64,000 nt of DNA from a virus (taxonomy: Duplodnaviria; Caudoviricetes), in the IMG/VR virus record IMGVR_UViG_3300021400_000034, positions 128,001 to 192,000 of that record. One strand, written 5' to 3'. Shown piece after piece: positions 1,795-14,915 of this stretch (positions are counted from its first letter, which is position 1; each line of letters starts with the position of its first letter). The notes under the pieces are model-generated. The model had not been told where the DNA came from. It did no database searches and worked only from the letters and a program-made list of their open reading frames with translations. The position numbers were made by a program, and so were the translations under genes.

Positions 1795-1872
1795 CGAAAT
1801 CTATGTTCCGCTCCACTGAGAGCGGAATTTTTGTGTTCAGAATTTGTCTATATTTAAAGCTGAGGTAACTTT

Positions 1873-2421: not shown

Positions 2422-2438
2422 CTCTAGAGGAAACACCA

Positions 2439-3059: not shown

Positions 3060-3079
3060 CTGATCCATAGCAGAGCCGC

Positions 3080-3112
3080 GAGAGTGGAGCCGTCATGAGC
3101 TCCGCTCTTTTT
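3080..3112 (+). terminator. Rho-independent terminator
   Basis: AGAGTGGAGC...GCTCCGCTCT followed by T-run. Confidence 0.7.
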
Positions 3113-3235
3113 GTGTAGATGCAACTATGTAGAGGCAACCATGTTTAGAAAGTTTTACAAAAGTTTCTCATAAAAATATGTATATTGTTGTATAAATAAA
3201 ACAATCAAAGCTGGAATACAGCGCAAAGGAATAAA

Positions 3236-3364
3236 ATGATCCTGACCGGAACGACATATCAGTCAAAATACGCCAATCACAAGGCGGTTGAAAATTGCGG
3301 TCGCGATCAAGGCTTGAGAAGCATCGATCCAAGATTTGCAATCGAGCCGAACCGCTGCGAATGA
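3236..3364 (+). CDS. Putative 42-aa leader peptide of the tRNA operon
   Basis: AAGGA SD, ATG 3236, TGA 3362-3364 overlapping an antiterminator arm. Confidence 0.5.
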   Translation: MILTGTTYQSKYANHKAVENCGRDQGLRSIDPRFAIEPNRCE

Positions 3365-3431
3365 CTTCCAGTCTCTAAGACGCTTTTATAAGAGGAGAAC
3401 GAGGAAGTCACCACGACTTCCTCTCTTTTTT
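3362..3431 (+). promoter_or_regulatory. Attenuator-like terminator/antiterminator
   Basis: Terminator GAGGAAGTC-accac-GACTTCCTC + T6; alternative pairing TGACTTCC(3362-3369)/GGAAGTCA(3403-3410). Confidence 0.55.
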
Positions 3432-3496
3432 GTATAAGCGTCGAAACACCGTCTCGTGAAGATGATGTGCAGATTGACATTTCGGCAATGACTTAT

Positions 3497-3570
3497 GGAC
3501 CGGTAGCCCAACTGGCAGAGGCAGGGCACTCAAAACGCCCGCAGTGATGGTTCGAATCCATCTCGGTCCA
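3497..3570 (+). tRNA. tRNA-Leu(CAA), short variable arm
   Basis: Cloverleaf, loop CT-CAA-AA, GGTTCGAATCC. Confidence 0.8.
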
Positions 3571-3575
3571 CTTAT

Positions 3576-3649
3576 GGGGCTGCATGTACCAAGGCTGGCG
3601 ATGGATCTTAGCAAGATTCGTGAGAAGGGTTCGATTCCCTTCGGTTCCA
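3576..3649 (+). tRNA. tRNA-Ala(AGC)
   Basis: Loop TT-AGC-AA, G3:U70, atypical D arm. Confidence 0.7.
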
Positions 3650-3655
3650 CTACAT

Positions 3656-3729
3656 TAGGTCGTAGTTCTAATTGGCAGAACGCCTGGCCGTTAACCAGGA
3701 TGTTGCAGGTTCGAGTCCTGCCCTCCCAG
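3656..3729 (+). pseudogene. Degenerate tRNA-Asn(GTT)
   Basis: Good D/AC/T arms, C33, acceptor stem with 3 mismatches. Confidence 0.55.
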
Positions 3730-3736
3730 CTAATTT

Positions 3737-3810
3737 CAGCGTATAGCTCAGTCTGGTAGAGCGTTGGTTTCGGGTACCAAAGGTCGGTGGTTCGAATCCA
3801 CCTACGCTGA
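3737..3810 (+). tRNA. tRNA-Pro(CGG)
   Basis: Cloverleaf, TTGGT-TTCGGGT-ACCAA. Confidence 0.9.
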
Positions 3811-3846
3811 CTCTTTAGAAAAACTTTGAAAATGACAAAATTTGAC

Positions 3847-3875
3847 TTTACAAAACAGCTAAAAATTCCTATAAT
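3847..3875 (+). promoter_or_regulatory. Early (sigma70-type) promoter family TTTA(C/G)(A/G)-N17-TATA(T/A)T
   Basis: Same motif with -35 at 5241, 12934, 14855, 17371, 19860, 21784, 25355, 49043, 51698, 55057 (+) and 36732-36759 (16-nt spacer), 39642-39670, 41223-41251, 42093-42121, 43796-43824 (-). Confidence 0.75.
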
Positions 3876-3911
3876 ATATATGTAAAACTCTTAAAGAAAA
3901 GGACCTGAACT

Positions 3912-4253
3912 ATGAAATTCAGAATCGTCTACATCGGCAACACCCGCCACATCAAGGAACTCAAGGCTGCAGCCCAGGAATTCAACCCCACCGCCCGCTC
4001 TCAGTGGCTCGGGATCTGCTTCCCGGACGACGCGATCGAAGCTGAAGTCGAAAGCGTAGAAGAGGGCAAGAAGCTCATGGCCCACATCTACAAGAAGGTC
4101 AACTGCTTCCCGAAGAAGTACTCTTACGTGGACGGACCGGAATGGTGGTCCAACGACATGAAGCACTTCCTCGGCACTTCTGTCTGCTCCGACCGCTTCG
4201 ACTACGAGAAGCCAGTCACCGAAGAACACTTTGAAGACTTCTTGGAGGCATAA
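3912..4253 (+). CDS. Hypothetical early protein
   Basis: ORF after early promoter with AAGGACC RBS. Confidence 0.75.
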   Translation: MKFRIVYIGNTRHIKELKAAAQEFNPTARSQWLGICFPDDAIEAEVESVEEGKKLMAHIYKKVNCFPKKYSYVDGPEWWSNDMKHFLGTSVCSDRFDYEKPVTEEHFEDFLEA

Positions 4254-4537
4254 TGATCTGGAAGCGCTCTACATACAGTCACAGCGGAACGCTCGCTGTG
4301 TTCGCAAACGATGACGATGGCAGTCCTTACGGCGTCGCTACCGTATATCTGGAAGGGCAGAGCGAAACGCTCCCCAGAGACTGCGCATTCGTCGATACGA
4401 ACAACTGGCCAGACATCGTCGAGACGCTGGAGAAAGCCGATCTCGCTGAAGAGCTGATCGACTCCTATGGCTCTTCGGGATTCTGCGTCTATCCAGCGAT
4501 GCGCTTCAAGATCGAGAAGATCTCGGAAGCACGATAA
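4253..4537 (+). CDS. Hypothetical protein (DUF4313-like)
   Basis: PYG.ATV.L...AFVDTNN...SGFCVYP pattern. Confidence 0.55.
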   Translation: MIWKRSTYSHSGTLAVFANDDDGSPYGVATVYLEGQSETLPRDCAFVDTNNWPDIVETLEKADLAEELIDSYGSSGFCVYPAMRFKIEKISEAR

Positions 4538-4557
4538 ATTAAGTAGATTTGTTCTAC

Positions 4558-4631
4558 GCCCCGATAGCTCAGCTGGATAGAGCAACTGCCTTCTAAGCAG
4601 TAGGTCGCAGGTTCGAATCCTGCTCGGGGTA
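4558..4631 (+). tRNA. tRNA-Arg(TCT)
   Basis: Canonical cloverleaf. Confidence 0.92.
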
Positions 4632-4755
4632 CTACCGAGTCTAGCTCTCGACCTATATCCTCACACAAATATGGGTTTCCCTTAAACTAACATACTGCTA
4701 GACTCTGTCATGGTCTTCTCCGTTCCCATGAATAAAGAACCGAGACGCCTTTCAT

Positions 4756-4829
4756 GGATCTGTATGACAACTGGAATAGTCGAGGCGACTTTTAATCGTC
4801 GGATCTGGGTTCGAGTCCCGGCAGGTCCA
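4756..4829 (+). tRNA. tRNA-Lys(TTT)
   Basis: GGCGA-CTTTTAA-TCGTC, T arm. Confidence 0.85.
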
Positions 4830-4842
4830 CTAACATAGAACA

Positions 4843-5034
4843 ATGGAGATGAAGATGAAGAAAGACAAGAAAGAGCCTGAGACTTGGGAAGAGAAGAAGA
4901 ACCGCTGGGAGAAGCAGACGAAGAAGGCACTGTCTTTCGCTAAACAGAGCGGAATCGACGTCAAGAAGTTACAACGCGAACGAGCTAAGAACGAAGCTGA
5001 GAAGAGAGATCGATCTCGTTCGCAGTTCTTCTAA
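4843..5034 (+). CDS. Small basic hypothetical protein
   Basis: ORF between tRNAs with phage codon usage. Confidence 0.55.
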   Translation: MEMKMKKDKKEPETWEEKKNRWEKQTKKALSFAKQSGIDVKKLQRERAKNEAEKRDRSRSQFF

Positions 5035-5039
5035 GACAA

Positions 5040-5124
5040 GGCCACATGGCGGAACTGGTAGACGCTATGGACTTAAAATCCATTGAAGGTAATCTTCGTG
5101 AGAGTTCGAGTCTCTCTGCGGCTA
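5040..5124 (+). tRNA. tRNA-Leu(TAA)
   Basis: Type II cloverleaf. Confidence 0.88.
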
Positions 5125-5127
5125 TAC

Positions 5128-5219
5128 TGGGCAGTCGCCAAGTCTGGTTCAAGGCCCCGGACTTTGACTCCGGTAGAGAGGAAGTTCCTCCGTCAGTGGT
5201 TCGAATCCACTCTGCCCAA
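5128..5219 (+). tRNA. tRNA-Gln(TTG) with long variable arm
   Basis: CCGGA-CTTTGAC-TCCGG; extra GAGGA-agt-TCCTC hairpin. Confidence 0.8.
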
Positions 5220-5340
5220 TAAAAAATTCTAGAAATAGGGTTTAGAAACTGAACTTCAATTTCTATATTCTAATCATCGTCAATCGATGAGGCTCTTCCG
5301 AGAGAAGAACCAGCAAATTGAAATTTCGGCAATGACTTAT

Positions 5341-5414
5341 TCCACTCTAGCTCAATTGGTAGTAGCGGGCGGCTGTTAACCGCCAGGTTCCTGGTTCGAG
5401 TCCAGGGAGTGGAG
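5341..5414 (+). tRNA. tRNA-Asn(GTT)
   Basis: Canonical cloverleaf. Confidence 0.92.
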
Positions 5415-5415
5415 C

Positions 5416-5822
5416 TACACACGCGGTAATTGTTTTACAGTTTCTGCTTGGCGTGAGCATTCCTCCGTCCGGGGTGCCTTTTGAGCCCTCGGGTCGCGGT
5501 AAAAGAATGAAACTGGAGAGACTAAGTTGAAAAGGCTGCGATGTACCGCACAGGTGAAGTAAGTGCAACAACACTGGTTTCGAATTAAATGGCGAGGAGC
5601 CATCGAGAGAAGTCGAACTGTGGTAAGAGCAGAGGCTCTACGCTCTGGAGGTTGCATACTCCGGACGTGGACTACAAAGTGCATCCGATCGTCGCGGATA
5701 TTCTTCTTTCGATACGGGCAAATCGCAAGTCAGGAACAGTCATGCAAGACTCAGTACTGGCGAGCTCTTTAACGAGAGAGAACACTGCACTGAGGTCACC
5801 GCAGTCTAATCAAACCTCACCT
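5416..5822 (+). ncRNA. Large structured ncRNA candidate (possibly GOLLD/ROOL-like)
   Basis: ~400 nt between two tRNAs, no credible ORF, multiple helices (CAGTTTC/GAAACTG, TGAGGT/ACCTCA). Confidence 0.4.
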
Positions 5823-5823
5823 C

Positions 5824-5896
5824 GGGGCCGTGGCGCAATTGGTAGCGCATCAGATTTGCATTCTGAGGGTTGCGGGTCCGACTCCCGCCGGTTCCA
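5824..5896 (+). tRNA. tRNA-Ala(TGC)
   Basis: Cloverleaf, G3:U70, T loop TCCGACT. Confidence 0.85.
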
Positions 5897-5899
5897 CTA

Positions 5900-5960
5900 T
5901 AGATCCTAACAGCAATTCAAAGCACATTCCTGTTAAGAATCGAAAGCTAAAATGGATCTA
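5900..5960 (+). ncRNA. ACAGCAA-stem element E1 carrying an Asn(GTT) anticodon stem-loop
   Basis: TAGATCC/GGATCTA stem, TAACAGCAA, ATTC-CTGTTAA-GAAT. Confidence 0.7.
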
Positions 5961-5967
5961 GTCATTT

Positions 5968-6040
5968 CAGTCTGTACGTCAATTGGTAGACGGATGGTTT
6001 TGGGAACCATTAGTTGAGTGTTCGAGTCACTCCAGACTGA
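5968..6040 (+). tRNA. tRNA-Pro(TGG)
   Basis: Cloverleaf. Confidence 0.88.
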
Positions 6041-6161
6041 CTACTAAAAGAGGGACAAGAGGCTTCCACCTCCTGATCGAATTTCGTCGTTCGATCTCAC
6101 CTCTATACAATATGAGGATATGGAAGAATCCTCGTAAAAATAAAGATAACAGAGGCGAATT

Positions 6162-6944
6162 ATGATTTGCGAAAATTGCGGAAAAGAACATGACGGTTCT
6201 TACGGAAGTGGAAGATTCTGCTCTAGAGATTGCAGATTTTCTTATATAGGTAAACAGACTAACAAGAATGGTAAACATACTGGTCATCCTAATTATAATA
6301 CTGGAAGGACTCATTTTACTGCTTCACCAGATGGATGGAAATGCAAATGGTGTGATTTAGTCTTTAGAACTAGACGTGAACGTTCAAAACATTCAAATGA
6401 AGTTCATATACGCGATAAAAAGCATCCTTGGAATTATGGACTAACCAAAGATACTTCTAAAAAGGTAAAAGAGAGTACAGAATTAGTTAGGGAACTATAC
6501 AAAGCTGGAAAAATTCGTAAACCTGACAAAAAATTAGTATGGACGGAAGAGAGAAGACAAAGACAATCTGATAAGAAAAAGAAGTTTTATTCTGAACATC
6601 CAGAAGCACATCCAAATCGAAAATTAGCTAATAATCGTTCTAAGATGAGTTATCCAGAAAAGATAGTTTACGATTGGCTTACTGAGAAAAACATATCTTT
6701 TGAACATAATAAGCTGATAAGAACTAAAACTATTACGAGATATGTAGATTTTTATCTAAAAGACAATAATCTTATAATAGAAGTTGATGGAGAATTTTGG
6801 CACAATAGAAAGATTGAAAAAGATAAAAAGAAAGATTTTGAAGCCGAAGAAGCCGGTTATACTACTCTCCGAATAAAAGCAAAAGAGAGGATAATAGACC
6901 GATTAAATGACTTCTTCAGCTATCATATAAAAACGCTGGAATAG
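6162..6944 (+). CDS. Homing endonuclease (Zn fingers + DUF559/Vsr-like PD-(D/E)xK domain)
   Basis: CENC, CSRDC, CKWC; SYPE...VDFY...IIEVDGEFWH; AT-rich; stop lies inside the next tRNA. Confidence 0.75.
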   Translation: MICENCGKEHDGSYGSGRFCSRDCRFSYIGKQTNKNGKHTGHPNYNTGRTHFTASPDGWKCKWCDLVFRTRRERSKHSNEVHIRDKKHPWNYGLTKDTSKKVKESTELVRELYKAGKIRKPDKKLVWTEERRQRQSDKKKKFYSEHPEAHPNRKLANNRSKMSYPEKIVYDWLTEKNISFEHNKLIRTKTITRYVDFYLKDNNLIIEVDGEFWHNRKIEKDKKKDFEAEEAGYTTLRIKAKERIIDRLNDFFSYHIKTLE

Positions 6945-7007
6945 CTCAGCTGGTAGAGCAGGGCTTTCGTAAAGCTCAGGTCGGCAGTTCGAGCCTGTCT
7001 TCCAGCG
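6935..7007 (+). tRNA. tRNA-Thr(CGT)
   Basis: Cloverleaf. Confidence 0.88.
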
Positions 7008-7019
7008 CTACTGAAATTA

Positions 7020-7142
7020 GAGATGGTAACAGCAATTCTCTTTAGGCTGGTAACCTCGTGGTCGCGGGTTCGAGTCCCGTCTGGTCAGTCTCCGGATTGA
7101 TCGGTAGCTCAGTTGGTAGAGCACGTACAAGAAATCCATCTC
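7020..7142 (+). ncRNA. Element E2: circularly permuted tRNA(GGT)
   Basis: GAGATGG/CCATCTC stem, AACAGCAA; 3' piece 7044-7088 precedes 5' piece 7098-7125. Confidence 0.8.
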
Positions 7143-7148
7143 GTCTTT

Positions 7149-7222
7149 GGTGCCGTGGTGAAGTGGCCTAACACATCGGTCTGTCTAACCGACATACGCG
7201 AGTTCGAATCTCGCCGGCATCG
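7149..7222 (+). tRNA. tRNA-Asp(GTC)
   Basis: Cloverleaf. Confidence 0.88.
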
Positions 7223-7225
7223 CTA

Positions 7226-7555
7226 TGATCTGAAGGAGAGACTCTAGCAATAGTGGAGTCGCTATCCTTGCAAAGGCCGCTACATTGAGCGTTACTTCGC
7301 CGTCAATTGGATCCAATGGAAGGACGCTTACTGGTTGATCAGCAGAAGTCAATTCGACGTCAACATGATGTCACCGACGAAGGCTGTGATGGAGTCAGGG
7401 GAGAGCATAGGCATAAGCATCCTGGCCCGGCCGCTGGAATCTCGAATTCATTTCAACCATCGAACGAGTCCGATGGTTCTATCGCGAAAAATAACGGCAT
7501 AAGCGCGAGACAGGTAAAGTCTTCGGTCACAAGACTATAAATGACCGGCCGTACA
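7226..7555 (+). ncRNA. Unknown ~300-nt structured RNA
   Basis: 5' TGATCTGAAGG pairs with TCTTCGGTCA (7520-7529); internal hairpins; between tRNAs. Confidence 0.4.
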
Positions 7556-7556
7556 A

Positions 7557-7640
7557 GTCAGCTTCGGATAGCGGCAATTCCAGGAGACTGTAAATCTCCT
7601 GCCTTAACGGGCTTCGTAGGTTCGAGTCCTACAGCTGGCA
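7557..7640 (+). tRNA. tRNA-Tyr(GTA)
   Basis: Type II cloverleaf. Confidence 0.9.
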
Positions 7641-7647
7641 CTAATCC

Positions 7648-7823
7648 ATAGCGTCTGAATTCAAGTACGTATCTTCGTAGCTCAGTTGGTAGAGCGCAGG
7701 CCGAGAGGGCCTGAGGCGGTGGTTCGAGTCCATTCGTCGACCGTGAAGAGGGGGAGGCTTGGAGAGGATATCGGTTGAACTGTGAACTCGAGATAGCTTT
7801 TCACTCTTATCCTCAGCGCTATT
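7648..7823 (+). ncRNA. tRNA-like domain nested in a larger closed RNA
   Basis: Outer ATAGCG/CGCTAT stem; canonical D and T arms; AC loop lacks U33; poor acceptor stem. Confidence 0.55.
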
Positions 7824-7825
7824 AT

Positions 7826-7898
7826 GCTGGAATAGCTCAATTGGCAGAGCGTCGCCTTTGTAACGCGAGGGTTGGGAGTTCGATTCTCTCTTCCAGCG
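7826..7898 (+). tRNA. tRNA-Thr(TGT)
   Basis: Cloverleaf. Confidence 0.85.
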
Positions 7899-7959
7899 CT
7901 ATAATGAAAAGAATTGTAAAAGTTTTCTAAATCTTGGCTTTATCGATATAAATAGACAG

Positions 7960-8589
7960 ATGGTTCACTACACTGTCTATAAGATAACAAATCTTCTAAA
8001 CGGGATGATCTACATCGGTAAGCACAAGACGGAGAATCTGGACGATTCTTACATGGGATCTTCTGAGTGGTTGAAGTCTTCTATCAAGAAGCACGGAATA
8101 GAGAACTACAAGAAAGAGATTCTATTCGACTTCGAGACAAAAGAAGAGATGGACTTGAAGGAGAAAGAGCTAGTCAACGAAGAGTTCGTCAGACGCAAAG
8201 ATACATACAATCTGAACACTGGCGGAACTGGAGGCTGGTTCGCATGTAACAGCTCTGGTCTGAATCATTCGGCTGGTCAACATCTTCTCTCAGGCGAGAG
8301 ATGTCGGAAGGATCCAGAATACCGGAAGAAGTTCTGCGAGAAAGTGAGCGAGGGACTAAAGAAATATTACGAAGATCCAGAACATCGTCTCTATGGCGTC
8401 AAGAACCCTAGATACGGAATTCAGCTCACTCCGGAAGAGAAAGCGAGACTCAGCGCATCTCATTCTGGAAAGAAGAACGGTTCTTACGGTTCGCACTGGA
8501 TAACGAACCCGAAGCTGAAGAAGAACATGAGACTGAAAGGACTTGTGAAACTTCCAAGAGGTTGGAAGTTCGGAAGAAAGAAGTATTAA
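7960..8589 (+). CDS. GIY-YIG homing endonuclease (Seg-like)
   Basis: VYKITN..NGMIYIGKH...YMGS...YNL; late promoter at 7947. Confidence 0.9.
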   Translation: MVHYTVYKITNLLNGMIYIGKHKTENLDDSYMGSSEWLKSSIKKHGIENYKKEILFDFETKEEMDLKEKELVNEEFVRRKDTYNLNTGGTGGWFACNSSGLNHSAGQHLLSGERCRKDPEYRKKFCEKVSEGLKKYYEDPEHRLYGVKNPRYGIQLTPEEKARLSASHSGKKNGSYGSHWITNPKLKKNMRLKGLVKLPRGWKFGRKKY

Positions 8590-8592
8590 CGA

Positions 8593-8664
8593 CGCGGAGT
8601 GGAGGAGTGGTTTCCTTGAAGGGTTCATACCCCTTAGACCCCGGTTCGAGTCCGGGCTCCGCTA
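8593..8664 (+). tRNA. Initiator tRNA-fMet(CAT)
   Basis: C1 mismatch, three G-C pairs in the anticodon stem. Confidence 0.8.
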
Positions 8665-8669
8665 CTAAT

Positions 8670-8935
8670 TTTAGTCAAGTCAATGTCGGGCCGTTTGACT
8701 CGCGCTTCGATGTAACGACATACTTGGCAAGGCGTCAGTGAAGTGATGGCCATCGCGGATCTTTCGCCGGATCTTTTAAAGCGTAGCGCATGTACCGATA
8801 GAGATCTCCTGAGGTTGCGAACTCTCTTGATCTTGACAAGCAGGTAGCTTCGGTCCCGTCGTTGAGACGGTGCAAAAAGTCTCAGTCGTCGCAACGGCTG
8901 TGATCGCGGTTCGAATCCGTCGTGCGTGACACAAT
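8670..8935 (+). ncRNA. Unknown ~260-nt structured RNA ending in a T-arm-like hairpin
   Basis: Hairpins, TGAGAC/GTCTCA alternative pairing, GCGGTTCGAATCCGT near the 3' end. Confidence 0.35.
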
Positions 8936-8938
8936 TTA

Positions 8939-9037
8939 GAGATACCGACAGCAATTCATTGTTAGTGGTTCGAATCCATAAGCTGAATAGCTGCGGTCTG
9001 GCGCAAGTCAGATGGGCAATACAAACAGCGGTATCTC
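8939..9037 (+). ncRNA. Element E3: T-arm-first degenerate permuted tRNA-like payload
   Basis: GAGATACCG/CGGTATCTC stem, ACAGCAA, GTGGTTCGAATCCAT followed by two hairpins. Confidence 0.7.
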
Positions 9038-9042
9038 GTCAT

Positions 9043-9114
9043 GGTCCCTTCGGCCAGTGGTTAAGCCATCGCACTTTCTATGCGAGGACCCCAGTTCGAC
9101 TCTGGGAGGGACTA
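9043..9114 (+). tRNA. tRNA-Glu(TTC)
   Basis: Cloverleaf. Confidence 0.88.
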
Positions 9115-9229
9115 CTAAGAGTGACTCGGTGGGTGTTCGCGGCTGATAGTCCTAACACACCTCCGGCAACACTTCGAACTAGATGACTAGCTACTGCGAC
9201 GAGTTCGAAGGAGAACACTCTTCGTTTTT

Positions 9230-9299
9230 GAGATAGGTACAGCAATGATCACCAACTCTGCTCCATCATGCGGTTCGTGGCGTTAGGCCACTCTATCTC
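9230..9299 (+). ncRNA. Element E4 (payload unclear)
   Basis: GAGATAG/CTATCTC stem, GTACAGCAA. Confidence 0.65.
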
Positions 9300-9366
9300 G
9301 TAAACTTGGGTGCGCGGTCGGAGGAAGCCCTCCGGAGTTTCTCAATTCTCGAAAAATTGATCATAT

Positions 9367-9439
9367 CCCGGTATAGTTCAGTTGGTAGAACAGCTCCTTC
9401 ATACGGAGACGGTCGCAGGTTCAAGTCCTGCTATCGGAA
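9367..9439 (+). tRNA. tRNA-Met/Ile2(CAT)
   Basis: Cloverleaf, loop TTCATAC. Confidence 0.78.
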
Positions 9440-9445
9440 CTATAT

Positions 9446-9518
9446 GCCTCGCTGGCGCAATTGGTAGCGCAAGGCACTCTTAATGCTTGGGTTGAAGGTT
9501 CGAGTCCTTCGCGGGGTA
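9446..9518 (+). tRNA. tRNA-Lys(CTT)
   Basis: Cloverleaf. Confidence 0.9.
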
Positions 9519-9646
9519 CTAAAATCTATCTCATGCTTATTAAGCTACGGCATGAGCTCTAGCTATGTTTCGTCCGAGAGCCATCAGGTATAAAAAGCGG
9601 TCAGGGCACGGTTCTTGCTCTAAAGCGGTCGCTAGCATGAACTTTT

Positions 9647-9719
9647 CTCCGGTTAACTCAGCGGTTAGAGTGCCATCCTTACAAGTTGGAAGTCCGGGGT
9701 TCGAATCCCTGATCGGAGA
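9647..9719 (+). tRNA. tRNA-Val(TAC)
   Basis: Cloverleaf. Confidence 0.88.
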
Positions 9720-9725
9720 CTACTA

Positions 9726-9793
9726 AAGATCCTAACTGCAAATTTCTTATAACATCCGATTGGTAATCAGACTACGTTAGAAAAATGGATCTT
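9726..9793 (+). ncRNA. Element E5 carrying a Thr(GGT) anticodon stem-loop
   Basis: AAGATCC/GGATCTT stem, TAACTGCAA, TCCGA-TTGGTAA-TCAGA. Confidence 0.68.
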
Positions 9794-9804
9794 GAAATTT
9801 TTAT

Positions 9805-9878
9805 CGGCATCTAGCGCAATTGGTTAGAGCACTGCTCTGATAAGGCAGAGGTTTTTGGTTCAAGTCCAAGGTTGCCGA
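9805..9878 (+). tRNA. tRNA-Ile(GAT)
   Basis: Cloverleaf. Confidence 0.85.
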
Positions 9879-9882
9879 CTAA

Positions 9883-9938
9883 GAGGTTCTTACAGCAATT
9901 CTACAATCTTCTTTTTGGTTAAGAAAAAAAGGAATCTC
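9883..9938 (+). ncRNA. Element E6 carrying a Pro(TGG)-like anticodon stem-loop
   Basis: GAGGTTCT/GGAATCTC stem, TACAGCAA, TTCTT-TTTGGTT-AAGAA. Confidence 0.62.
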
Positions 9939-9944
9939 GATTAT

Positions 9945-10018
9945 CCACCTATAGCTCAGAACGGTAGAGCGGAAGACTGAAGATCTTCGCGTCGGAGTCT
10001 CGAACCCTCCTAGGTGGA
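9945..10018 (+). tRNA. tRNA-Phe(GAA)
   Basis: Cloverleaf with atypical T loop. Confidence 0.8.
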
Positions 10019-10027
10019 CTACAATAT

Positions 10028-10109
10028 CCCCTCGTGGCGGAACTGGTAGACGCGCCTGACTTAGGATCAGGAGCCGAGAGGCGTGCAGGTTCGAGTCCTG
10101 CCGAGGGGA
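10028..10109 (+). tRNA. tRNA-Leu(TAG)
   Basis: Type II cloverleaf. Confidence 0.92.
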
Positions 10110-10113
10110 CTAT

Positions 10114-10223
10114 AAGATAACAGACAGCAATCATCTACCCCAAAGCGGCTATGTTGGTGAAAGTCCAGCCGTCGATGTATGTCGGCGTCATCTAATCTAG
10201 GATTCCGCTCAAAATGTCATCTT
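10114..10223 (+). ncRNA. Element E7: permuted tRNA opened in the anticodon loop (Gly CCC-like)
   Basis: AAGATAACA/TGTCATCTT stem, GACAGCAA; AGCGG-T arm-acceptor hairpin-D arm-CCGCT. Confidence 0.7.
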
Positions 10224-10229
10224 GACTAT

Positions 10230-10303
10230 ACTCCGTTGGTGTAATGGACTTAGCATACGGGCCTACGAAGCCCTTGATCCAAGTTCGAATCTTGGACGGA
10301 GTA
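10230..10303 (+). tRNA. tRNA-Arg(ACG)
   Basis: Cloverleaf. Confidence 0.88.
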
Positions 10304-10315
10304 CTATTCCATGAT

Positions 10316-10436
10316 TAGATCCAAACTGCAACTCTCAAATCGTTACCATCAATCAACGGCCAAGCATCTCGGGATGCGCCTAGCTACATGGACTGGGAGA
10401 GGAGGGTTCGAATCCCCGGAAAATGAATCGGATCTA
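10316..10436 (+). ncRNA. Element E8 with a T-arm-containing payload
   Basis: TAGATCC/GGATCTA stem, AACTGCAA, GGGTTCGAATCCC. Confidence 0.65.
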
Positions 10437-10623
10437 GCTAAGCTCTCGATGCTGCTGACATTACGTCTAAATCGGAAAAACGCTATTCCATGTCTCGTGA
10501 AAGATATAAGCGAGAAGCAAGATAGTTAGCTCTGCATCGTCGATGCTAAGAGAGACGATGTCGTCATATATCCTCTGAACGGTCTTCGAGACAAGCGCTA
10601 AATCAACGCACAGGATAAATTAA

Positions 10624-10696
10624 GCTGACGTGCCGAAGTGGGAACGGAGGAGTCTGCAAAACTTTCTATGAGTGGGTTCGATTCCTACCGTCAGCT
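10624..10696 (+). tRNA. tRNA-Cys(GCA)
   Basis: Cloverleaf, U73. Confidence 0.88.
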
Positions 10697-10701
10697 CTAT
10701 A

Positions 10702-10811
10702 CAAGATGTCAACCGCAATTCCTTTCCAGGGTAGCTCTAGAGGTAGAGCACCGTCCTTGAGGCGGAAGAAGCTGGTTCGATCCCAGCCCCGGGAGCACAG
10801 ACGGCATCTTG
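10702..10811 (+). ncRNA. Element E9: whole tRNA-like payload with a 5-nt anticodon loop
   Basis: CAAGATGTC/GGCATCTTG stem, AACCGCAA, CCGTC-CTTGA-GGCGG. Confidence 0.7.
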
Positions 10812-10822
10812 ACAATTTAAAT

Positions 10823-10906
10823 CGGGCTATTACCTTGGGCCGGACTCATAACCCGGGCCGTTAAAATCCAGGGCGGTGCGGAGAGGTTCGACTCCTCGTG
10901 GCCCGA
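10823..10906 (+). tRNA. D-armless tRNA(CAT)-like RNA with long variable arm
   Basis: CGGGCTA/TGGCCCG acceptor, CTCATAA loop, T arm, no D stem. Confidence 0.55.
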
Positions 10907-10909
10907 TAA

Positions 10910-10994
10910 GGAGGACTACACTAATTGGTAAGTGACCACGGTGCTAACGTGGCGCCTCGAAAGAGGCTTCCAGGTTCGAGCCCTGGGTCCTCCG
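10910..10994 (+). tRNA. tRNA-Ser(GCT)
   Basis: Type II cloverleaf. Confidence 0.88.
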
Positions 10995-11076
10995 CTAAAG
11001 ATCTTAGGAGTCGTTGCCCTAAGCAACGTGGAGCGCACGCGCCGGTACCGTCCAGAGCCGTCAAATCTGGACTTTT

Positions 11077-11167
11077 GGAAGTGTGCCAGAGTCTGGCTTA
11101 TCGGACCGGTCTTGAAAACCGAGGGCGGTACCCATTCCGCACGGGGGTTCGAATCCCTCCACTTCCT
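11077..11167 (+). tRNA. tRNA-Ser(TGA)
   Basis: Type II cloverleaf. Confidence 0.88.
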
Positions 11168-11172
11168 CTATC

Positions 11173-11243
11173 GCGTCCTTGATGTAGTGGTAGCACTTCT
11201 CATTGCCTGTGAGAAAGCGCCAGTTCGAATCTGGCAGGACGCT
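11173..11243 (+). tRNA. tRNA-Gly(GCC)
   Basis: Cloverleaf. Confidence 0.85.
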
Positions 11244-11266
11244 TACTTTTCTATATTTAAAATACA

Positions 11267-11348
11267 GAGATAGACACAGCAATCCTTTTGGATAACGTAA
11301 TGATCTGCAAAATCAAAGCTAGACGGTCCAAATCCGTCAATCTATCTC
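11267..11348 (+). ncRNA. Element E10: Cys(GCA) anticodon arm + T-like arm
   Basis: GAGATAGA/TCTATCTC stem, CACAGCAA, TGAT-CTGCAAA-ATCA, GACGG-TCCAAAT-CCGTC. Confidence 0.7.
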
Positions 11349-11356
11349 GTTCATAA

Positions 11357-11427
11357 GCACCACTGGTCTAAAAGTATGATCAAACTCTTCCAAAGTTTGG
11401 GAACCGGGGCAGTACCGGTGTGGTGCT
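11357..11427 (+). tRNA. tRNA-Gly(TCC)
   Basis: Cloverleaf with atypical T loop GGCAGTA. Confidence 0.75.
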
Positions 11428-11430
11428 CTA

Positions 11431-11545
11431 GAGATTCCAACAGCAAACTCTGGTTTTTTCCGCCGTTGGGAAAATAGCTCAATTGGTAGAGCGCTCGTCA
11501 CTATGACGAGAGGTTACGGGTTCGAGTCCCGCTAAAGTGAATCTC
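11431..11545 (+). ncRNA. Element E11: tRNA permuted between T arm and acceptor
   Basis: GAGATTC/GAATCTC stem, AACAGCAA; acceptor hairpin, then D, AC and T arms. Confidence 0.72.
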
Positions 11546-11552
11546 GTCTTTT

Positions 11553-11626
11553 GGCTCTGTCGAATAACTGGTTCAGTTCGTTAGCCTCTCAAGCTAGAAA
11601 TTCGGGTTCAAGTCCCGACAGAGCTA
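11553..11626 (+). tRNA. tRNA-Glu(CTC)
   Basis: Cloverleaf. Confidence 0.88.
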
Positions 11627-11632
11627 TACATC

Positions 11633-11706
11633 CCCGCAGTAGTGTGAATTGGTTAGCACGCCTGCTTGTGGCGCAGGAAGTTCGGGTTCGAATCTCGGCT
11701 ATGGGA
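11633..11706 (+). tRNA. tRNA-His(GTG)
   Basis: Cloverleaf; no encoded G-1, A73. Confidence 0.8.
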
Positions 11707-11844
11707 CTAAGTCACTGATGAAGATGATGTAAGTAAGCCCGTCCAAGGTAGATCCTTTTGGGGCTAGTGCAGTAGCATAAGTTGCGGTATAGAGGCTGAG
11801 AATGCGTACAGGATAGCTCAGTAATGCGTCATCAGAGACTTTCA

Positions 11845-12225
11845 ATGATAGGCACAGCAACTCTAACACGTTCAATACATCAAATGCTGACGTGCAGAGC
11901 TACGGGAAATTGCCTTGATCGACGAGGACAGGGCCATGGTCGAGCAGCGCAGCTGAATCTCGATCACCTTGACGGACGGTCAGAACGTTCGTCTAACTTC
12001 CGGGCAGACTGCTCGGTAAGATCTTGCCCGTCTCTGATAGTTCCAAGACGAAGAACTTGGTGCTTGCTCTAATAAGTAAGGAGATAGTGCTGGTGACACC
12101 AGATAGCGTCAATGAGAAACCGTTGACTGATCTTTTGTAAGCTGCTATTCGAATCAAGAGAGAAGCGACACGAAGCAGCGGAGACTGAAAAGACAGCAAA
12201 CTCTAATCGGTCTCGTCCCTATCAT
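11845..12225 (+). ncRNA. Element E12: ~380-nt element with hairpin-dense payload
   Basis: ATGATAGG/CCTATCAT stem, CACAGCAACTCTAA. Confidence 0.55.
12181..12214 (+). ncRNA. Element E13: minimal empty element nested in E12
   Basis: GAGACTGA/TCGGTCTC stem, GACAGCAAACTCTAA. Confidence 0.55.
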
Positions 12226-12231
12226 GTTTTC

Positions 12232-12302
12232 TGCCCGTTGGTATAACGGTATTACACCTGACTCTGACTCAGGTGACGGTGGTCCGACTCCATCACGGGC
12301 AA
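12232..12302 (+). tRNA. tRNA-Gln(CTG)
   Basis: Cloverleaf. Confidence 0.85.
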
Positions 12303-12420
12303 TATGGAATGATAAGGTTCAGCCTCTGTTCTAGAGATCGGTGAATTCGCGACACTTCATCGAGATCGAGAACTACCACCAGCACGATCTGTCTTCGAAG
12401 CGGATCAAAAGAGGCATTCT

Positions 12421-12492
12421 AGGGAATTCGTATATCGGTTATTACGGCGGTCTCCAAAACCGTTCAGCTCTGTTCGACTCGGAGATTCCCTG
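12421..12492 (+). tRNA. tRNA-Trp(CCA)
   Basis: Cloverleaf. Confidence 0.85.
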
Positions 12493-12495
12493 CTA

Positions 12496-12624
12496 GAGAT
12501 TCTAACAGCAGAACGGTCTGTAAAACCGTTGGCTTTCGCCTTCGCAGGTTCGAATCCTGTCCACCTCCATACGAGGAGGTGTGCCCGAGCTGGTCAAAGG
12601 GGACGGTCCGCTAAAATGAATCTC
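12496..12624 (+). ncRNA. Element E14: circularly permuted tRNA-Tyr(GTA)
   Basis: GAGATTC/GAATCTC stem, AACAGCA; AC-V-T arms, CACCTCCA, linker, GGAGGTG, D arm; ACGGTC duplicated. Confidence 0.8.
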
Positions 12625-12629
12625 GTTCT

Positions 12630-12714
12630 CCTCCGGTACCCGAATTGGTATAGGGGCCTGCTTGAGGGGCAGGTGGGCGATATGCCCGTGAGAGTTCAAG
12701 TCTCTCTTGGAGGA
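12630..12714 (+). tRNA. tRNA-Leu(GAG)
   Basis: Type II cloverleaf. Confidence 0.88.
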
Positions 12715-12831
12715 CTAAAGTTTGTTCTTGCAAGGCGGACTCCGTCAATTAAGTCAATCATGTCGAGATGGACATGGGACGACGGAGGACGTGACCCCCT
12801 GCTCGGTGTCAGGCTAAAACGCCGCTATTTG

Positions 12832-12845
12832 AAGTCATTGCCGAA
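12832..12845 (+). repeat. Trailer complementary to leaders at 3481-3494 and 5325-5338
   Basis: AAGTCATTGCCGAA is the exact reverse complement of TTCGGCAATGACTT. Confidence 0.8.
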
Positions 12846-12879
12846 CACTTCCTCGCTTTTGTGGGCTTTAGGCGAGGAC

Positions 12880-12914
12880 AGCGAGTTCAGGACCGCTCTG
12901 AACCCGCTCTTTTT
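12880..12914 (+). terminator. Terminator ending the RNA operon
   Basis: AGCG.GTTCAG/CTGAAC.CGCT + T-run. Confidence 0.65.
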
Positions 12915-12994
12915 GTAGATTTTCGAATAATGGTTTACGAATTCTCCAAAAAGACCTATATTTAAAACGAAACCTCAACAAGAAGGACCATATC

Positions 12995-13165
12995 ATGGCT
13001 ACCGAAACCGAAAAGAAAGAAACTCACAACTGTGTCATCTGCGGAGATCCGTTCACTGGCTACGGAAACAATCCAGTCCCCGTCAAGTTCTCGGGACGCT
13101 GCTGCGACACGTGCAACGGCAGGTACGTCATTCCCGCTAGATTCATGTTAGCCGCTGCAAAGTGA
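12995..13165 (+). CDS. Small Cys-rich (Zn-binding) phage protein
   Basis: CVICG..GYGNNP...CCDTCN..VIPAR; early promoter and AAGGACC RBS. Confidence 0.7.
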   Translation: MATETEKKETHNCVICGDPFTGYGNNPVPVKFSGRCCDTCNGRYVIPARFMLAAAK

Positions 13166-13308
13166 TGGAATACCGCGAGACTGACAGACTGAGAGATCAG
13201 AGAATCGAAGGAACGGACAACGGCCGAACTCTTCGCACTCGCGTAGTGAGAGACAAGACTAAGTACACTCGAAAACTCAAGCACAAGGAGACAACTGAAA
13301 ATGAGTAA
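13165..13308 (+). CDS. Small basic protein with ArfA-like motif
   Basis: RTRVVRDKTKYTRKLKHK; start overlaps the upstream stop. Confidence 0.5.
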   Translation: MEYRETDRLRDQRIEGTDNGRTLRTRVVRDKTKYTRKLKHKETTENE

Positions 13309-13900
13309 AGTGACTATTGAAACACGAGAAGAAACACGTGAAGAAATCTTCAAGAAGATGAAGCGCTGGACCAATGCAATGCACAGGCTAGAAAGAGAGC
13401 GCTCTTTTCACAAACAGAACCTCAGGATGTGCAAGTTCGTCAATCTCTCATGCAACGAGCAGATCAGAATCGTCCAGCATGAAGCTGATGAGATCAACAG
13501 ACGCTCAGTCCGCATCATGAACCTTCGCCATCTCCACAACGACCAATGGCGAGGACTCACCTACGAAGATCGCTGCCGCTACCGCTTCTGGGTCGCAAAC
13601 GAGCCTTTTCCGAACGATCTCTATGAGCAGTGGACTGAGACTGGAGCTAAGCGCTCGTTCTTCGACTGGCTCAAGAAGCCAGATCACGCTTCAGAGATGA
13701 AGAAGGTCATCGAAGAGTTTGACGACAAGCTGACCGTCATCGGAAAGGCAGACTTCGACGCTGCTCCGAACTCTACTGAGCTGAATGTAGAGATGCGCCT
13801 CACTAGGGTAGAAGCTGAGAAGATCGCGAACAAGATCATTCACTTCCTCGCTAGCTCAACCGCCGCTGAGCTCATCTTGGACCTTCACGATGAAGATTGA
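13301..13900 (+). CDS. Hypothetical protein
   Basis: ORF with AAGGAG SD. Confidence 0.7.
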   Translation: MSKVTIETREETREEIFKKMKRWTNAMHRLERERSFHKQNLRMCKFVNLSCNEQIRIVQHEADEINRRSVRIMNLRHLHNDQWRGLTYEDRCRYRFWVANEPFPNDLYEQWTETGAKRSFFDWLKKPDHASEMKKVIEEFDDKLTVIGKADFDAAPNSTELNVEMRLTRVEAEKIANKIIHFLASSTAAELILDLHDED

Positions 13901-14369: not shown

Positions 14370-14399
14370 TATAAATAAGAAAAAGAGAGGTTTAAACCT

Positions 14400-14819: not shown

Positions 14820-14915
14820 GTCCTAAAAATCTCAAGAAAATCTCAATCCAAGGGTTTAGATTTCCCTTGGATTTTCTTATATTTTACTTGTAAAACTCAA
14901 TAAAGGACCAGCAAC

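What the first reader, a model, noticed from the sequence alone, without database searches (positions are those of the whole stretch)
5900..11348. Minimal elements that present only an anticodon arm
Seen: E1 ATTC-CTGTTAA-GAAT (Asn GTT), E5 TCCGA-TTGGTAA-TCAGA (Thr GGT), E6 TTCTT-TTTGGTT-AAGAA (Pro TGG) and E10 TGAT-CTGCAAA-ATCA plus a T-like arm (Cys GCA). These are 7-nt loops with Y32-U33 (A37-A38 in three of four) and no acceptor stem, so they cannot be charged. Inference: decoys for anticodon-recognising nucleases, toxins or modification enzymes, or reduced remnants of larger payloads.
Basis: partly seen in the sequence, partly recalled or inferred. Interest (0 to 1): 0.75.

Follow-up and report, generated by a model that had tools for sequence, protein, structure and literature searches.

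The report
Anticodon-arm mimics on phage Y-like RNAs
Four short RNA genes in this T4-like jumbo phage's tRNA array join a conserved "handle", genetically tied to a Ro60-like ring protein, to a hairpin that copies a tRNA anticodon loop; the mimicry looks selected across hundreds of phage copies, but its purpose is untested.

Summary
The four elements exist as described. Three loops (E1 CUGUUAA, E5 UUGGUAA, E10 CUGCAAA) equal real anticodon loops; E6 (UUUGGUU) does not.

They are the smallest members of a family of about 14 in this phage. All share a handle: a covarying 7-bp closing helix, 2 nt, ACAGCAA, an A-rich 3' joiner and a 3' G.

I found the handle in hundreds of IMG/VR phage contigs, co-oriented with tRNAs, and in cultured Felix O1-like, Listeria P100/A511-like, Staphylococcus SEP9 and mycobacteriophage genomes.

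It sits beside a DUF2828+DUF7788 gene: 54 of 79 protein-selected loci, against about 4 in shuffles. In this phage one copy lies 30 nt upstream of that gene. The protein's model matches only Ro60/TROVE structures at full length.

Among minimal members, 39 of 154 seven-base loops equal real anticodon loops (1.8 expected).

Best reading: Y-RNA-like partners of a divergent Ro60 homolog that display an anticodon arm. The decoy or bait role is plausible but unshown.

The handle equals that of Dictyostelium Class I RNAs. This scan has already reported the family, including anticodon mimics, in at least 176 other genomes.

The parts
5900..5960 (+). E1. Handle UAGAUCC / GGAUCUA, then UA-ACAGCAA-UUC. 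Hairpin AUUC-CUGUUAA-GAAU (5926-5940) copies the tRNA-Asn(GUU) loop. G at 5961.
9726..9793 (+). E5. Handle AAGAUCC / GGAUCUU with core variant ACUGCAA. Hairpin UCCGA-UUGGUAA-UCAGA (9755-9771) is Thr(GGU)-like and has one C.A mismatch.
9883..9938 (+). E6. Handle GAGGUUC(U) / (G)GAAUCUC with a G.U pair, then ACAGCAA-UUC. Hairpin UUCUU-UUUGGUU-AAGAA (9909-9925) is Pro(UGG)-like but has U37. It is the best, sub-threshold, genome-wide hit of Rfam Dicty_Class_I_RNA.
11267..11348 (+). E10. Handle GAGAUAGA / UCUAUCUC, then C-ACAGCAA. It has a small hairpin AUCC-UUUU-GGAU, a hairpin UGAU-CUGCAAA-AUCA (11301-11315, the Cys GCA loop) and a T-like arm (11322-11338).
7020..7142 (+). E2, a family member with the same handle. 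Its cargo is a circularly permuted tRNA-Thr(GGU)-like body with a sealed acceptor end. It gives a sub-threshold Rfam YrlA match (38 bits; gathering score 69).
8939..9037 (+). E3, a family member. Handle GAGAUACC(G) / (C)GGUAUCUC; cargo includes a T-arm-like hairpin.
9230..9299 (+). E4, a family member. Handle GAGAUAGG / UCUAUCUC.
10316..10436 (+). E8, a family member. Handle UAGAUCC / GGAUCUA with core ACUGCAA; larger cargo with a T-arm-like end.
10702..10811 (+). E9, a family member with core ACCGCAA. The handle encloses a whole tRNA-like body that ARAGORN calls 'Leu gag', 73 nt.
11431..11545 (+). E11, a family member. The handle takes the place of the acceptor stem of a tRNA-like body (Rfam tRNA model positions 7-64).
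12496..12624 (+). E14, a family member with core ACAGCAG. Its cargo is a circularly permuted tRNA-Tyr(GUA)-like body that begins with an intact anticodon arm.

Best explanation
E1, E5, E6 and E10 are small non-coding RNAs transcribed with the tRNA array. Each has two modules.

Module 1 is a constant handle: a 7-bp helix formed by the RNA's two ends (consensus N-R-G-R-N-N-N paired with its complement), then 2 nt, ACAGCAA starting at position 10, an A-rich 3' joiner and a 3' G. The handle is most likely the docking site for the phage's own Ro60-like ring protein (DUF2828 + vWA/MIDAS domain). This is how Y RNAs dock on Ro60.

Module 2 is variable. In these four it is a short hairpin that displays a tRNA anticodon loop. 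It most likely serves as bait for a protein that reads anticodon loops. The leading candidate is a host anticodon nuclease or other tRNA-targeting defence factor; tRNA-modifying enzymes and synthetases are alternatives. The bait would titrate that protein, or bring it to the Ro-like particle and whatever nuclease or repair enzyme the particle recruits.

Shown: the family, helix covariation, strand and tRNA-array context, linkage to the Ro-like gene, the Ro60-like predicted fold, and selection on anticodon-like loops.

Inferred: RNA-protein binding, and any decoy, tether or repair role.
For: Handle and family. About 14 copies in this genome. 279 distinct elements from three arm-specific pattern scans; 643 with a general scanner that admits some false positives.

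Helix covariation. On 98 sequences all 7 pairs change on both sides: 204 double-change cells against 44 +/- 11 in shuffles, covariation score 0.84 against 0.26, with 17 G.U/U.G cells on this strand.

Context. 154 of 201 good elements lie in loci with same-strand tRNAs, against 4 with opposite-strand tRNAs only. Many lie 0-15 nt after one tRNA or 0-20 nt before the next.

Protein link. A roughly 500-aa DUF2828+DUF7788 gene is present in 61 of 134 element-selected loci. 92 of 94 gene-element pairs are co-oriented. Conversely, 54 of 79 loci chosen by the protein alone carry an element within 400 nt upstream on the same strand, against 4.1 (max 10) in shuffles. ACAGCAA occurs upstream in 58 of 79 loci and its reverse complement in 0 of 79. 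In this phage the gene is at genome 62967-64463, and the only element outside the tRNA array ends 30 nt before its start codon. All 4 near-complete element-bearing contigs tested carry the gene. T4 and T5 lack the gene.

Fold. The AF2 model has pLDDT 87 and pTM 0.85. The top 13 Foldseek PDB hits are all Ro60/TROVE proteins at full length, E 1.6e-7 to 4e-5. A MIDAS DxSxS motif is invariant.

Cultured phages show the same arrangement: SEP9, Felix O1/FO1a, Listeria LP-048/cka15 and Whirlwind.

Anticodon mimicry. Y32-U33-NNN-R37 hairpins occur in 49 of 155 minimal elements, against 6.4 +/- 2.4 in shuffles, and in 124 of 409 against 19.7 +/- 4.1. 39 of 154 loops equal real tRNA loops, against 1.8 expected. 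Among 107 distinct hairpins, Lys UUU (21) plus Asn GUU (14) give p = 6e-11 against their share of real tRNAs.

From papers. Ro60-Y RNA particles, tRNA-like YrlA and Y RNAs encoded next to rsr on the same strand (PMC4201824). Thermus phage Ro60 binds Y-like RNAs encoded upstream of its gene and host PNPase (PMC12135203). tRNA-Lys(UUU), Thr(UGU) and Asn(GUU) are the PARIS AriB targets (PMC12409363).
Against: The handle differs from the canonical Ro-binding motifs (GNCGAA, GGUCCGA). The Pfam TROVE model does not hit the protein.

The four elements lie about 70 kb from the Ro-like gene. They are linked to it only through the shared handle.

Only about 30-40% of minimal family members show an anticodon-like loop, so this cargo is one class among several.

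The E1 and E6 hairpins are not the predicted favoured fold, and the E6 loop is non-canonical.

The stems are 4-5 bp and A/U-rich, so they are marginally stable without a partner.

A/T-rich genomes favour U/A-rich loops such as CUUUUAA, although composition-preserving (mononucleotide) shuffles of each payload control for this.

AriB needs more than the anticodon arm: the UAAU context and D-loop U16 (PMC12409363). The mimics do not keep UAAU.
Confidence: 0.6

Rival explanations
1. They are pure stoichiometric decoys. The RNAs soak up anticodon nucleases or other anticodon-binding toxins without any Ro-like protein. The handle only stabilises the RNA against exonucleases and sets its processing from the tRNA precursor.
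For: The loops copy the preferred targets of known anticodon nucleases: Lys UUU and Asn GUU are the top two (PMC12409363). The elements sit in tRNA slots, so they would be released by tRNA processing. Phage tRNAs are known counter-defences (PMC12409363, PMC7824862).
Against: It does not explain why the handle sequence (ACAGCAA, G3:C70, 3' G) is conserved from phages to Dictyostelium Class I RNAs. It does not explain why the handle sits next to the Ro-like gene in 54 of 79 protein-selected loci. Many members carry no anticodon-like loop.
Confidence: 0.15
2. They are extremely reduced ('armless') tRNAs. The 7-bp terminal helix plus G would be an acceptor stem with discriminator. The 5' joiner is about 19 nt, the length of tRNA positions 8-26, and the short 3' joiner would replace the variable and T arms. 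They could be processed, CCA-tailed and possibly charged or modified.
For: Helix length is 7 bp. ACAGCAA starts exactly at position 10. The modal 5' joiner is 19-20 nt and the 3' joiner 5-15 nt. A 3' G follows 217 of 279 elements. In E10 and E11 the handle occupies the acceptor position of a partial cloverleaf. G73 plus GUU are E. coli tRNA-Asn identity elements (my own knowledge).
Against: There is no T arm, so bacterial EF-Tu, the ribosome and CCA-adding enzyme would not be expected to accept them. They lack the N73-CUA tail that follows nearly every real tRNA here. The phage already has full tRNAs for Asn, Pro and Cys, and Thr isoacceptors (CGU, UGU). Other members put whole or permuted tRNAs inside the handle, which makes no sense for an acceptor stem. 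Many members lack an anticodon-like loop.
Confidence: 0.07
3. They are decaying tRNA pseudogenes, or DNA-level mobile cassettes with inverted-repeat ends spread by the array's homing endonucleases. In that case they have no RNA function.
For: Homing endonuclease genes lie inside the array: DUF559/Vsr-like at 6162-6944 and GIY-YIG at 7960-8589. Cargo is mosaic and tRNA-derived. The element ends are inverted repeats.
Against: Compensatory changes occur at all 7 helix positions, and G.U pairs occur only on the tRNA strand. Orientation is strictly that of tRNAs and of the Ro-like gene. The handle is conserved across unrelated phage lineages. Loops stay exact while stems diverge.
Confidence: 0.04
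4. The hairpin loop is selected to pair with the ACAGCAA core (for example CUGU with ACAG) as a pseudoknot. Its likeness to anticodon loops would then be a by-product.
For: E1's CUGUUA is complementary to UAACAG. Several frequent loops (CUGUUAA, CUGUAAA, CUGCUAA, UUUGCAA) contain a 4-mer complementary to the core.
Against: The commonest loop, CUUUUAA, has no complementarity to the core. Only 14 of 50 anticodon-like loops hold such a 4-mer, against 159 of 857 real tRNA loops, a weak difference. The idea does not explain Y32-U33, A37-A38 or the G36-G37 coupling.
Confidence: 0.05

Closest known systems
Bacterial and phage Y RNAs with Ro60/Rsr: YrlA, Yrn1, and Thermus phage phiLo Yrl1/2 (PMC4201824, PMC12135203; Rfam RF02553)
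   Same: Small RNAs whose 5' and 3' ends pair into a helix that carries a conserved motif. A second, variable module mimics tRNA parts. The RNAs are encoded beside, and on the same strand as, a Ro60-type TROVE+vWA ring protein. They occur in phages. E2 in this window has the YrlA topology: a permuted tRNA body with a sealed acceptor.
   Different: The protein belongs to the DUF2828/DUF7788 family; Pfam TROVE does not match it, and Ro60 is recovered only by fold. The handle is ACAGCAA on a 7-bp helix, not GNCGAA/GGUCCGA in a long bulged stem. The RNAs are shorter (56-82 nt for the minimal ones). They are multi-copy (about 14 here) and scattered through a tRNA array. The cargo here is an anticodon arm, the part that YrlA lacks. 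No binding has been shown.
Class I RNAs of dictyostelid social amoebae (PMC7919456; Rfam RF01414)
   Same: The design is the same: a short terminal helix, then 2-3 nt, then ACAGCAA starting at position 10 (11-nt motif CCTTACAGCAA; for example GTTGAC-CTT-ACAGCAA...GTCAAC-TG), a variable middle, length 42-65 nt, and many genes per genome. The best RF01414 hit in this phage is E6.
   Different: Class I RNAs were reported as unique to Dictyostelia, with their own promoter element and one known binder, the RRM protein Rnp1A. No tRNA mimicry and no link to a Ro-like protein are described. E6 scores only 18.7 bits against a gathering score of 41.5.
Stable RNAs of unknown function in phage tRNA clusters: T4 rnaC/rnaD; T5 RNA1, RNA2 and RNA3 ('tRNA-like stable RNA')
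   Same: Small, partly tRNA-like RNAs encoded between phage tRNA genes and released from tRNA precursors (annotations).
   Different: T4 rnaC and rnaD lack the ACAGCAA handle, and no convincing element was seen in the T5 tRNA region. Both phages lack the Ro-like gene.
Anticodon-arm mimicry in the E. coli thrS operator, and anticodon stem-loop minihelices used as anticodon-nuclease substrates (my own knowledge; PMC1484252 for PrrC)
   Same: An isolated hairpin with a tRNA-like 7-nt loop is enough to be recognised by an anticodon-reading protein.
   Different: Those are an mRNA operator and laboratory substrates. They are not a gene family on a protein-docking handle.

Membership tests
Y RNA (Ro60 partner) | Encoded near, and on the same strand as, a Ro60-type gene | tested here: met
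   Met for the family: 54 of 79 protein-selected loci have an element within 400 nt upstream, and in this phage one copy lies 30 nt upstream of the gene. The four elements of the finding are about 70 kb away and are linked only by the shared handle.
Y RNA (Ro60 partner) | Partner protein is a Ro60/TROVE ring with a vWA domain | tested here: inconclusive
   Pfam TROVE gives no hit. The AF2 model's top 13 PDB matches are all Ro60 at full length, with TM about 0.5, and the MIDAS motif is conserved. It is fold-level kin, not a Pfam member.
Y RNA (Ro60 partner) | Terminal stem with the conserved Ro-binding motif (GGUCCGA / GNCGAA) | tested here: not met
   A terminal helix is present and covaries, but the conserved motif is ACAGCAA with N-R-G-R. 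The Rfam YrlA model matches only E2, at 38 bits against a gathering score of 69.
Y RNA (Ro60 partner) | Physically bound by the Ro60 protein | not testable with these tools
   This needs EMSA, co-immunoprecipitation or a structure.
Dictyostelid Class I RNA (RF01414) | Short terminal helix plus the 11-nt motif CCUUACAGCAA next to its 5' strand | tested here: inconclusive
   ACAGCAA is at the same position and the architecture is the same. The Rfam model scores only 18.7 bits on E6 (gathering score 41.5) and finds no other copy.
tRNA | Cloverleaf with D, anticodon and T arms, recognised by tRNA finders | tested here: not met
   ARAGORN and the Rfam tRNA model do not call E1, E5, E6 or E10. There is no T arm (E10 has only a T-like arm) and no D arm.
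tRNA anticodon arm (mimic) | 7-nt loop with Y32, U33, R37 and tRNA-like N36-N37 coupling on a 4-5 bp stem | tested here: met
   E1, E5 and E10 meet it; E6 fails at position 37. Family-wide, 39 of 154 loops equal real tRNA loops against 1.8 expected, and the 36/37 coupling matches tRNAs.
Self-cleaving ribozymes and other Rfam families | Match to a curated covariance model | tested here: not met
   There are no ribozyme hits in window 1-20000 at E <= 1, or on E1 at E <= 10.

The most novel reading that the evidence does not exclude
The ACAGCAA-handle RNAs and DUF2828 proteins form a previously unrecognised, very widespread branch of the Ro60/Y-RNA particle. It would be shared by phages, giant viruses, amoebae (Class I RNAs) and perhaps plants. 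Phages would have turned it into a programmable 'tRNA-part display'. Each copy presents a chosen anticodon arm, mostly Lys-UUU and Asn-GUU, to capture or sense host anticodon nucleases and couple them to RNA decay or repair.
Probability: 0.25. Interest if true: 0.85.

Novelty: new variant of a known kind. Interest (0 to 1): 0.55.

Why it matters
tRNA cleavage is a major bacterial defence, and phage tRNA arrays are seen as the counter-measure. If these RNAs are anticodon-arm baits carried on a Ro60-like particle, phages have a second, RNA-based layer of that counter-defence.

The work also gives a testable function to three unexplained things:
- DUF2828 'RNA-binding' proteins, present in 710 cultured phage records, including Felix O1-like and Listeria P100/A511-like phages.
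- Unannotated gaps in phage tRNA arrays.
- Class I RNAs of Dictyostelium.

The system is directly testable in laboratory phages.

The four elements add little beyond another instance. This scan had already reported the family and its anticodon mimics in other genomes.

Tried and rejected
- Two early pattern scans of IMG/VR gave mostly chance hits. One had the wrong spacing and one was too loose. The real hits were sieved out by requiring helix closure.
- Pfam TROVE and RtcB are absent from the phage. TROVE absence was misleading, because the Ro-like protein belongs to DUF2828.
- Ribozyme readings (HDV-like/theta, hammerhead, twister, hatchet, pistol) were rejected. Rfam gives no match, and the topology does not fit by inspection.
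- Readings as a retron msr, integron attC, MITE, CRISPR repeat or RNA anti-CRISPR were considered. They were rejected on motif, spacing, strand bias and covariation.
- T4 rnaC/rnaD and the T5 stable RNAs were checked and are not this family.
- Neither a neighbouring gene nor megablast against cultured phages found a close relative of this phage. Its portal protein is only about 25% identical to those of cultured T4-like phages.
- BLAST of E1 against cultured phages found nothing. The family was reached through the protein instead.
- The most transcribed non-coding region of Listeria phage cka15 (26,236-26,727; PMC12282133) is not an ACAGCAA element. That paper cannot be cited as proof that these RNAs are expressed.
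- The profile search of PDB sequences found nothing. Only the fold comparison recovered Ro60.
- The PARIS AriB link is a lead only. The mimics do not keep the UAAU-C|A context that AriB needs.

Full report
**What is there.** The window is bases 128001-192000 of a 243-kb IMG/VR phage genome with direct terminal repeats. It is a distant T4-like phage: it has UvsX, a gp41-like helicase and a gp20 portal, and the portal is about 25% identical to those of cultured relatives. Window positions about 3500-12700 hold 33 ARAGORN tRNAs on the + strand, with two homing-endonuclease genes among them. The four hairpins of the finding are at the stated places. None is called a tRNA by ARAGORN or Rfam.

**They are cargo on a repeated handle.** Each lies inside a unit with one architecture:
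- a 7-8 bp helix formed by the two ends of the unit (here N-AGAU-NN... paired with ...NN-AUCU-N');
- 1-2 nt;
- ACAGCAA (variants ACUGCAA, ACCGCAA, ACAGCAG), starting at position 10 in all but one copy;
- the cargo;
- an A-rich 3' joiner;
- a G immediately after the helix.

The array holds about 13 units and the genome has one more elsewhere. Cargo ranges from the minimal hairpins (E1, E5, E6, E10) to T-arm-like hairpins, a whole tRNA-like body (E9), a tRNA-like body that uses the handle as its acceptor stem (E11), and two circularly permuted tRNAs with sealed acceptor ends (E2, E14). Helix positions 6-7 differ between copies but always pair. G.U pairs occur on the + strand only.

**The family is widespread and is an RNA.** Pattern scans of IMG/VR with three arm variants returned 18, 119 and 83 stretches. 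My closure-requiring scanner found 279 distinct elements.
- 154 of 201 well-formed elements lie in loci with same-strand tRNAs, against 4 with only opposite-strand tRNAs. Many sit 0-15 nt after a tRNA or 0-20 nt before the next, so they occupy tRNA slots.
- On an alignment of 98 elements, all seven helix pairs show changes on both sides. There are 204 double-change cells against 44 +/- 11 in shuffles, and the covariation score is 0.84 against 0.26. The sequences were chosen with at least 6 of 7 pairs, so the percentage paired is not independent evidence. The diversity of pair types is.
- Rfam has no family for them.

**Link to a Ro60-like protein.** I clustered the ORFs of the element-bearing loci. 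One family of about 500 aa appeared in 61 of 134 loci. It is Pfam DUF2828 + DUF7788 with an invariant MIDAS DxSxS motif.
- 92 of 94 gene-element pairs are co-oriented. In 41 loci an element lies within 400 nt upstream of the gene.
- This phage has the gene at genome 62967-64463. Its single element outside the tRNA array (62739-62791) ends 30 nt before the start codon.
- As an unbiased converse, I fetched 80 loci by the protein alone; IMG/VR holds more than 540 relatives. 54 of 79 carry helix + core + G within 400 nt upstream on the same strand, against 4.1 (max 10) in shuffles. ACAGCAA occurs there in 58 of 79 loci and its reverse complement in none.
- All four near-complete element-bearing contigs that I tested carry the gene elsewhere. 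T4 and T5 lack the gene, and I saw no convincing element in their tRNA regions.
- The AlphaFold2 model has pLDDT 87 and pTM 0.85. Its 13 best PDB matches are all Ro60/TROVE proteins over their full length: Thermus phage phiLo, Xenopus, human and Deinococcus Rsr, with E 1.6e-7 to 4e-5. The Pfam TROVE model and a PDB sequence profile see nothing.
- 710 cultured phage records encode the protein. It is variously annotated 'Ro-like RNA binding protein', 'DUF2828' or 'vWFA'.
- Every cultured genome where I found elements has them next to the gene: Staphylococcus SEP9 (three downstream), Felix O1/FO1a (four among the downstream tRNAs), Listeria LP-048/cka15/P100/A511 (three upstream) and mycobacteriophage Whirlwind (three downstream). 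In a KVP40-like Vibrio phage I found none within 2.5 kb of the gene.

**Is the anticodon likeness real?** Yes, at the level of the family.
- Hairpins with at least 4 bp and a 7-nt Y-U-NNN-R-N loop occur in 49 of 155 minimal elements, against 6.4 +/- 2.4 in shuffled cargo.
- With a general scanner they occur in 124 of 409, against 19.7 +/- 4.1.
- 39 of 154 seven-base loops are identical to an anticodon loop of a real tRNA from the same loci, against 1.8 +/- 1.2 expected.
- N37 follows N36 as in tRNAs: G36 with G37 in 7 of 7, and U36 with A37 in 24 of 24.
- The same loop rides on many unrelated stems: CUUUUAA on 18 and CUGUUAA on 13.
- The anticodon spectrum is skewed. Among 107 distinct hairpins, Lys UUU has 21 and Asn GUU has 14 (p = 6e-11 against their share of real tRNAs). 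U36 accounts for 55 of 107.
- In this phage the E1 and E10 loops equal its own tRNA-Asn and tRNA-Cys loops. The stems are A/U-rich and unrelated to the G/C-rich tRNA stems, so these are not recent copies.

Caveats:
- Only about a third of minimal members show such a loop.
- E6 has U37.
- ViennaRNA does not favour the hairpin in E1 and E6.
- Complementarity between loop and core explains little: 14 of 50 anticodon-like loops have it, against 159 of 857 real loops, and the commonest loop has none.

**How it most likely works.** In Ro60-Y RNA particles the terminal helix of the Y RNA docks on the ring, and the other module tethers or gates other factors. Bacterial YrlA carries a tRNA-like module. 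Y RNA genes lie beside rsr on the same strand (PMC4201824). A Thermus phage Ro60 binds two Y-like RNAs encoded upstream of its gene and also binds host PNPase (PMC12135203). Jumbo-phage TROVE proteins have been placed among RNA-repair systems that answer tRNA cleavage (PMC7824862).

The ACAGCAA RNAs fit this frame, with a different handle and a divergent protein. I therefore read E1, E5, E6 and E10 as Y-like RNAs whose effector module is an anticodon arm. That module would be bait for an anticodon-reading protein. The excess of Lys-UUU and Asn-GUU points to anticodon nucleases: PrrC cleaves tRNA-Lys, and PARIS AriB cleaves Lys-UUU, Thr-UGU and Asn-GUU (PMC12409363). RNA ligase and kinase-phosphatase genes recur near the elements, and this phage has an RNA ligase. 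Binding, expression and any decoy or tether activity remain inference. The mimics do not keep the context that AriB requires.

**Comparison with the known.** The closest kin are Y RNAs with Ro60, but two defining features are not met: the canonical binding motif and Pfam TROVE membership. Binding itself is untested.

The handle is the same design as the Class I RNAs of Dictyostelium. In those, the helix GUUGAC is followed by CUU-ACAGCAA, and the 11-nt motif is CCTTACAGCAA. I read this from the code supplement of PMC7919456, following a lead from earlier notes of this scan. Rfam's Class I model gives its best hit in this genome on E6, but at 18.7 bits against a gathering score of 41.5.

A 2025 study of Listeria phage cka15 found the Ro-like protein in virions and guessed that abundant non-coding transcripts nearby might be Y RNAs (PMC12282133). 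Its top-expressed region is not an ACAGCAA element. The three elements lie at 25,290-25,552, in an unannotated gap next to the gene.

**Verdict.** This is a new variant of a known kind. Earlier follow-ups of this scan already reported the same family, including anticodon-arm mimics, in at least 176 other genomes. That recurrence does not count as independent support. The tests reported here were my own.

Noticed in passing
window 3497-12715 (all tRNAs): Nearly every tRNA in the array is followed by C-U-A after the discriminator (N73-CUA) instead of CCA. The ACAGCAA elements are instead followed by G-U/A. This suggests a shared 3'-processing signal for the tRNAs that the elements lack.
   Followed up: partly
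window 7020-7142 and 12496-12624: Two handle-bounded units carry circularly permuted tRNAs, Thr GGU and Tyr GUA, with loop-sealed acceptor ends. In E14 the 5' strand of the anticodon stem is present twice, so two alternative folds are possible.
   Followed up: partly
window 12181-12214: GAGACUGA-aaag-ACAGCAA-acucuaa-UCGGUCUC is a handle with almost no cargo. It is either an empty scaffold or a chance match.
   Followed up: no
window 3576-3652 and 9945-10018: Rfam finds a tmRNA-like/tRNA-like match (19.8 bits) between tRNA-Leu and tRNA-Asn, and a tRNA (51.6 bits) at 9945-10018. ARAGORN called neither.
   Followed up: no
window 6162-6944 and 7960-8589: Two homing-endonuclease-type genes lie inside the tRNA array: a DUF559/Vsr-like gene and a GIY-YIG SegE-like gene with NUMOD3.
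   Followed up: partly
L480 2837-3328 (Listeria phage cka15 26,236-26,727): The most highly transcribed non-coding region of cka15 (PMC12282133) is not an ACAGCAA element. It may be another, larger structured RNA between two tRNA genes.
   Followed up: partly
L477 5349-6503 (Listeria phage LP-048): An RtcB-like RNA ligase gene lies 1.3 kb downstream of the Ro-like gene and its three ACAGCAA RNAs. This recalls the Salmonella rsr-yrlBA-rtcBA operon.
   Followed up: no
supplement of PMC7919456 (candidate ath_can_1): An Arabidopsis candidate listed among outgroup hits has the same design: UGUUUUC-AU-UACAGCAA ... GAAAAC-UG. Papers that mention DUF2828 concern plant genes, so the pairing may extend to plants.
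   Followed up: no
genome C1 95509-96102 (outside the window): The phage encodes an RNA ligase (Pfam PF09414, 57 bits), so it has RNA-repair capacity alongside the Ro-like gene.
   Followed up: no
alignment A2: After ACAGCAA many copies continue N-Y-U-U-A (for example AUCUUAA, AUUUA). Dictyostelium Class I RNAs do the same (ACAGCAAUCUAA), so the conserved handle may extend beyond the heptamer.
   Followed up: no
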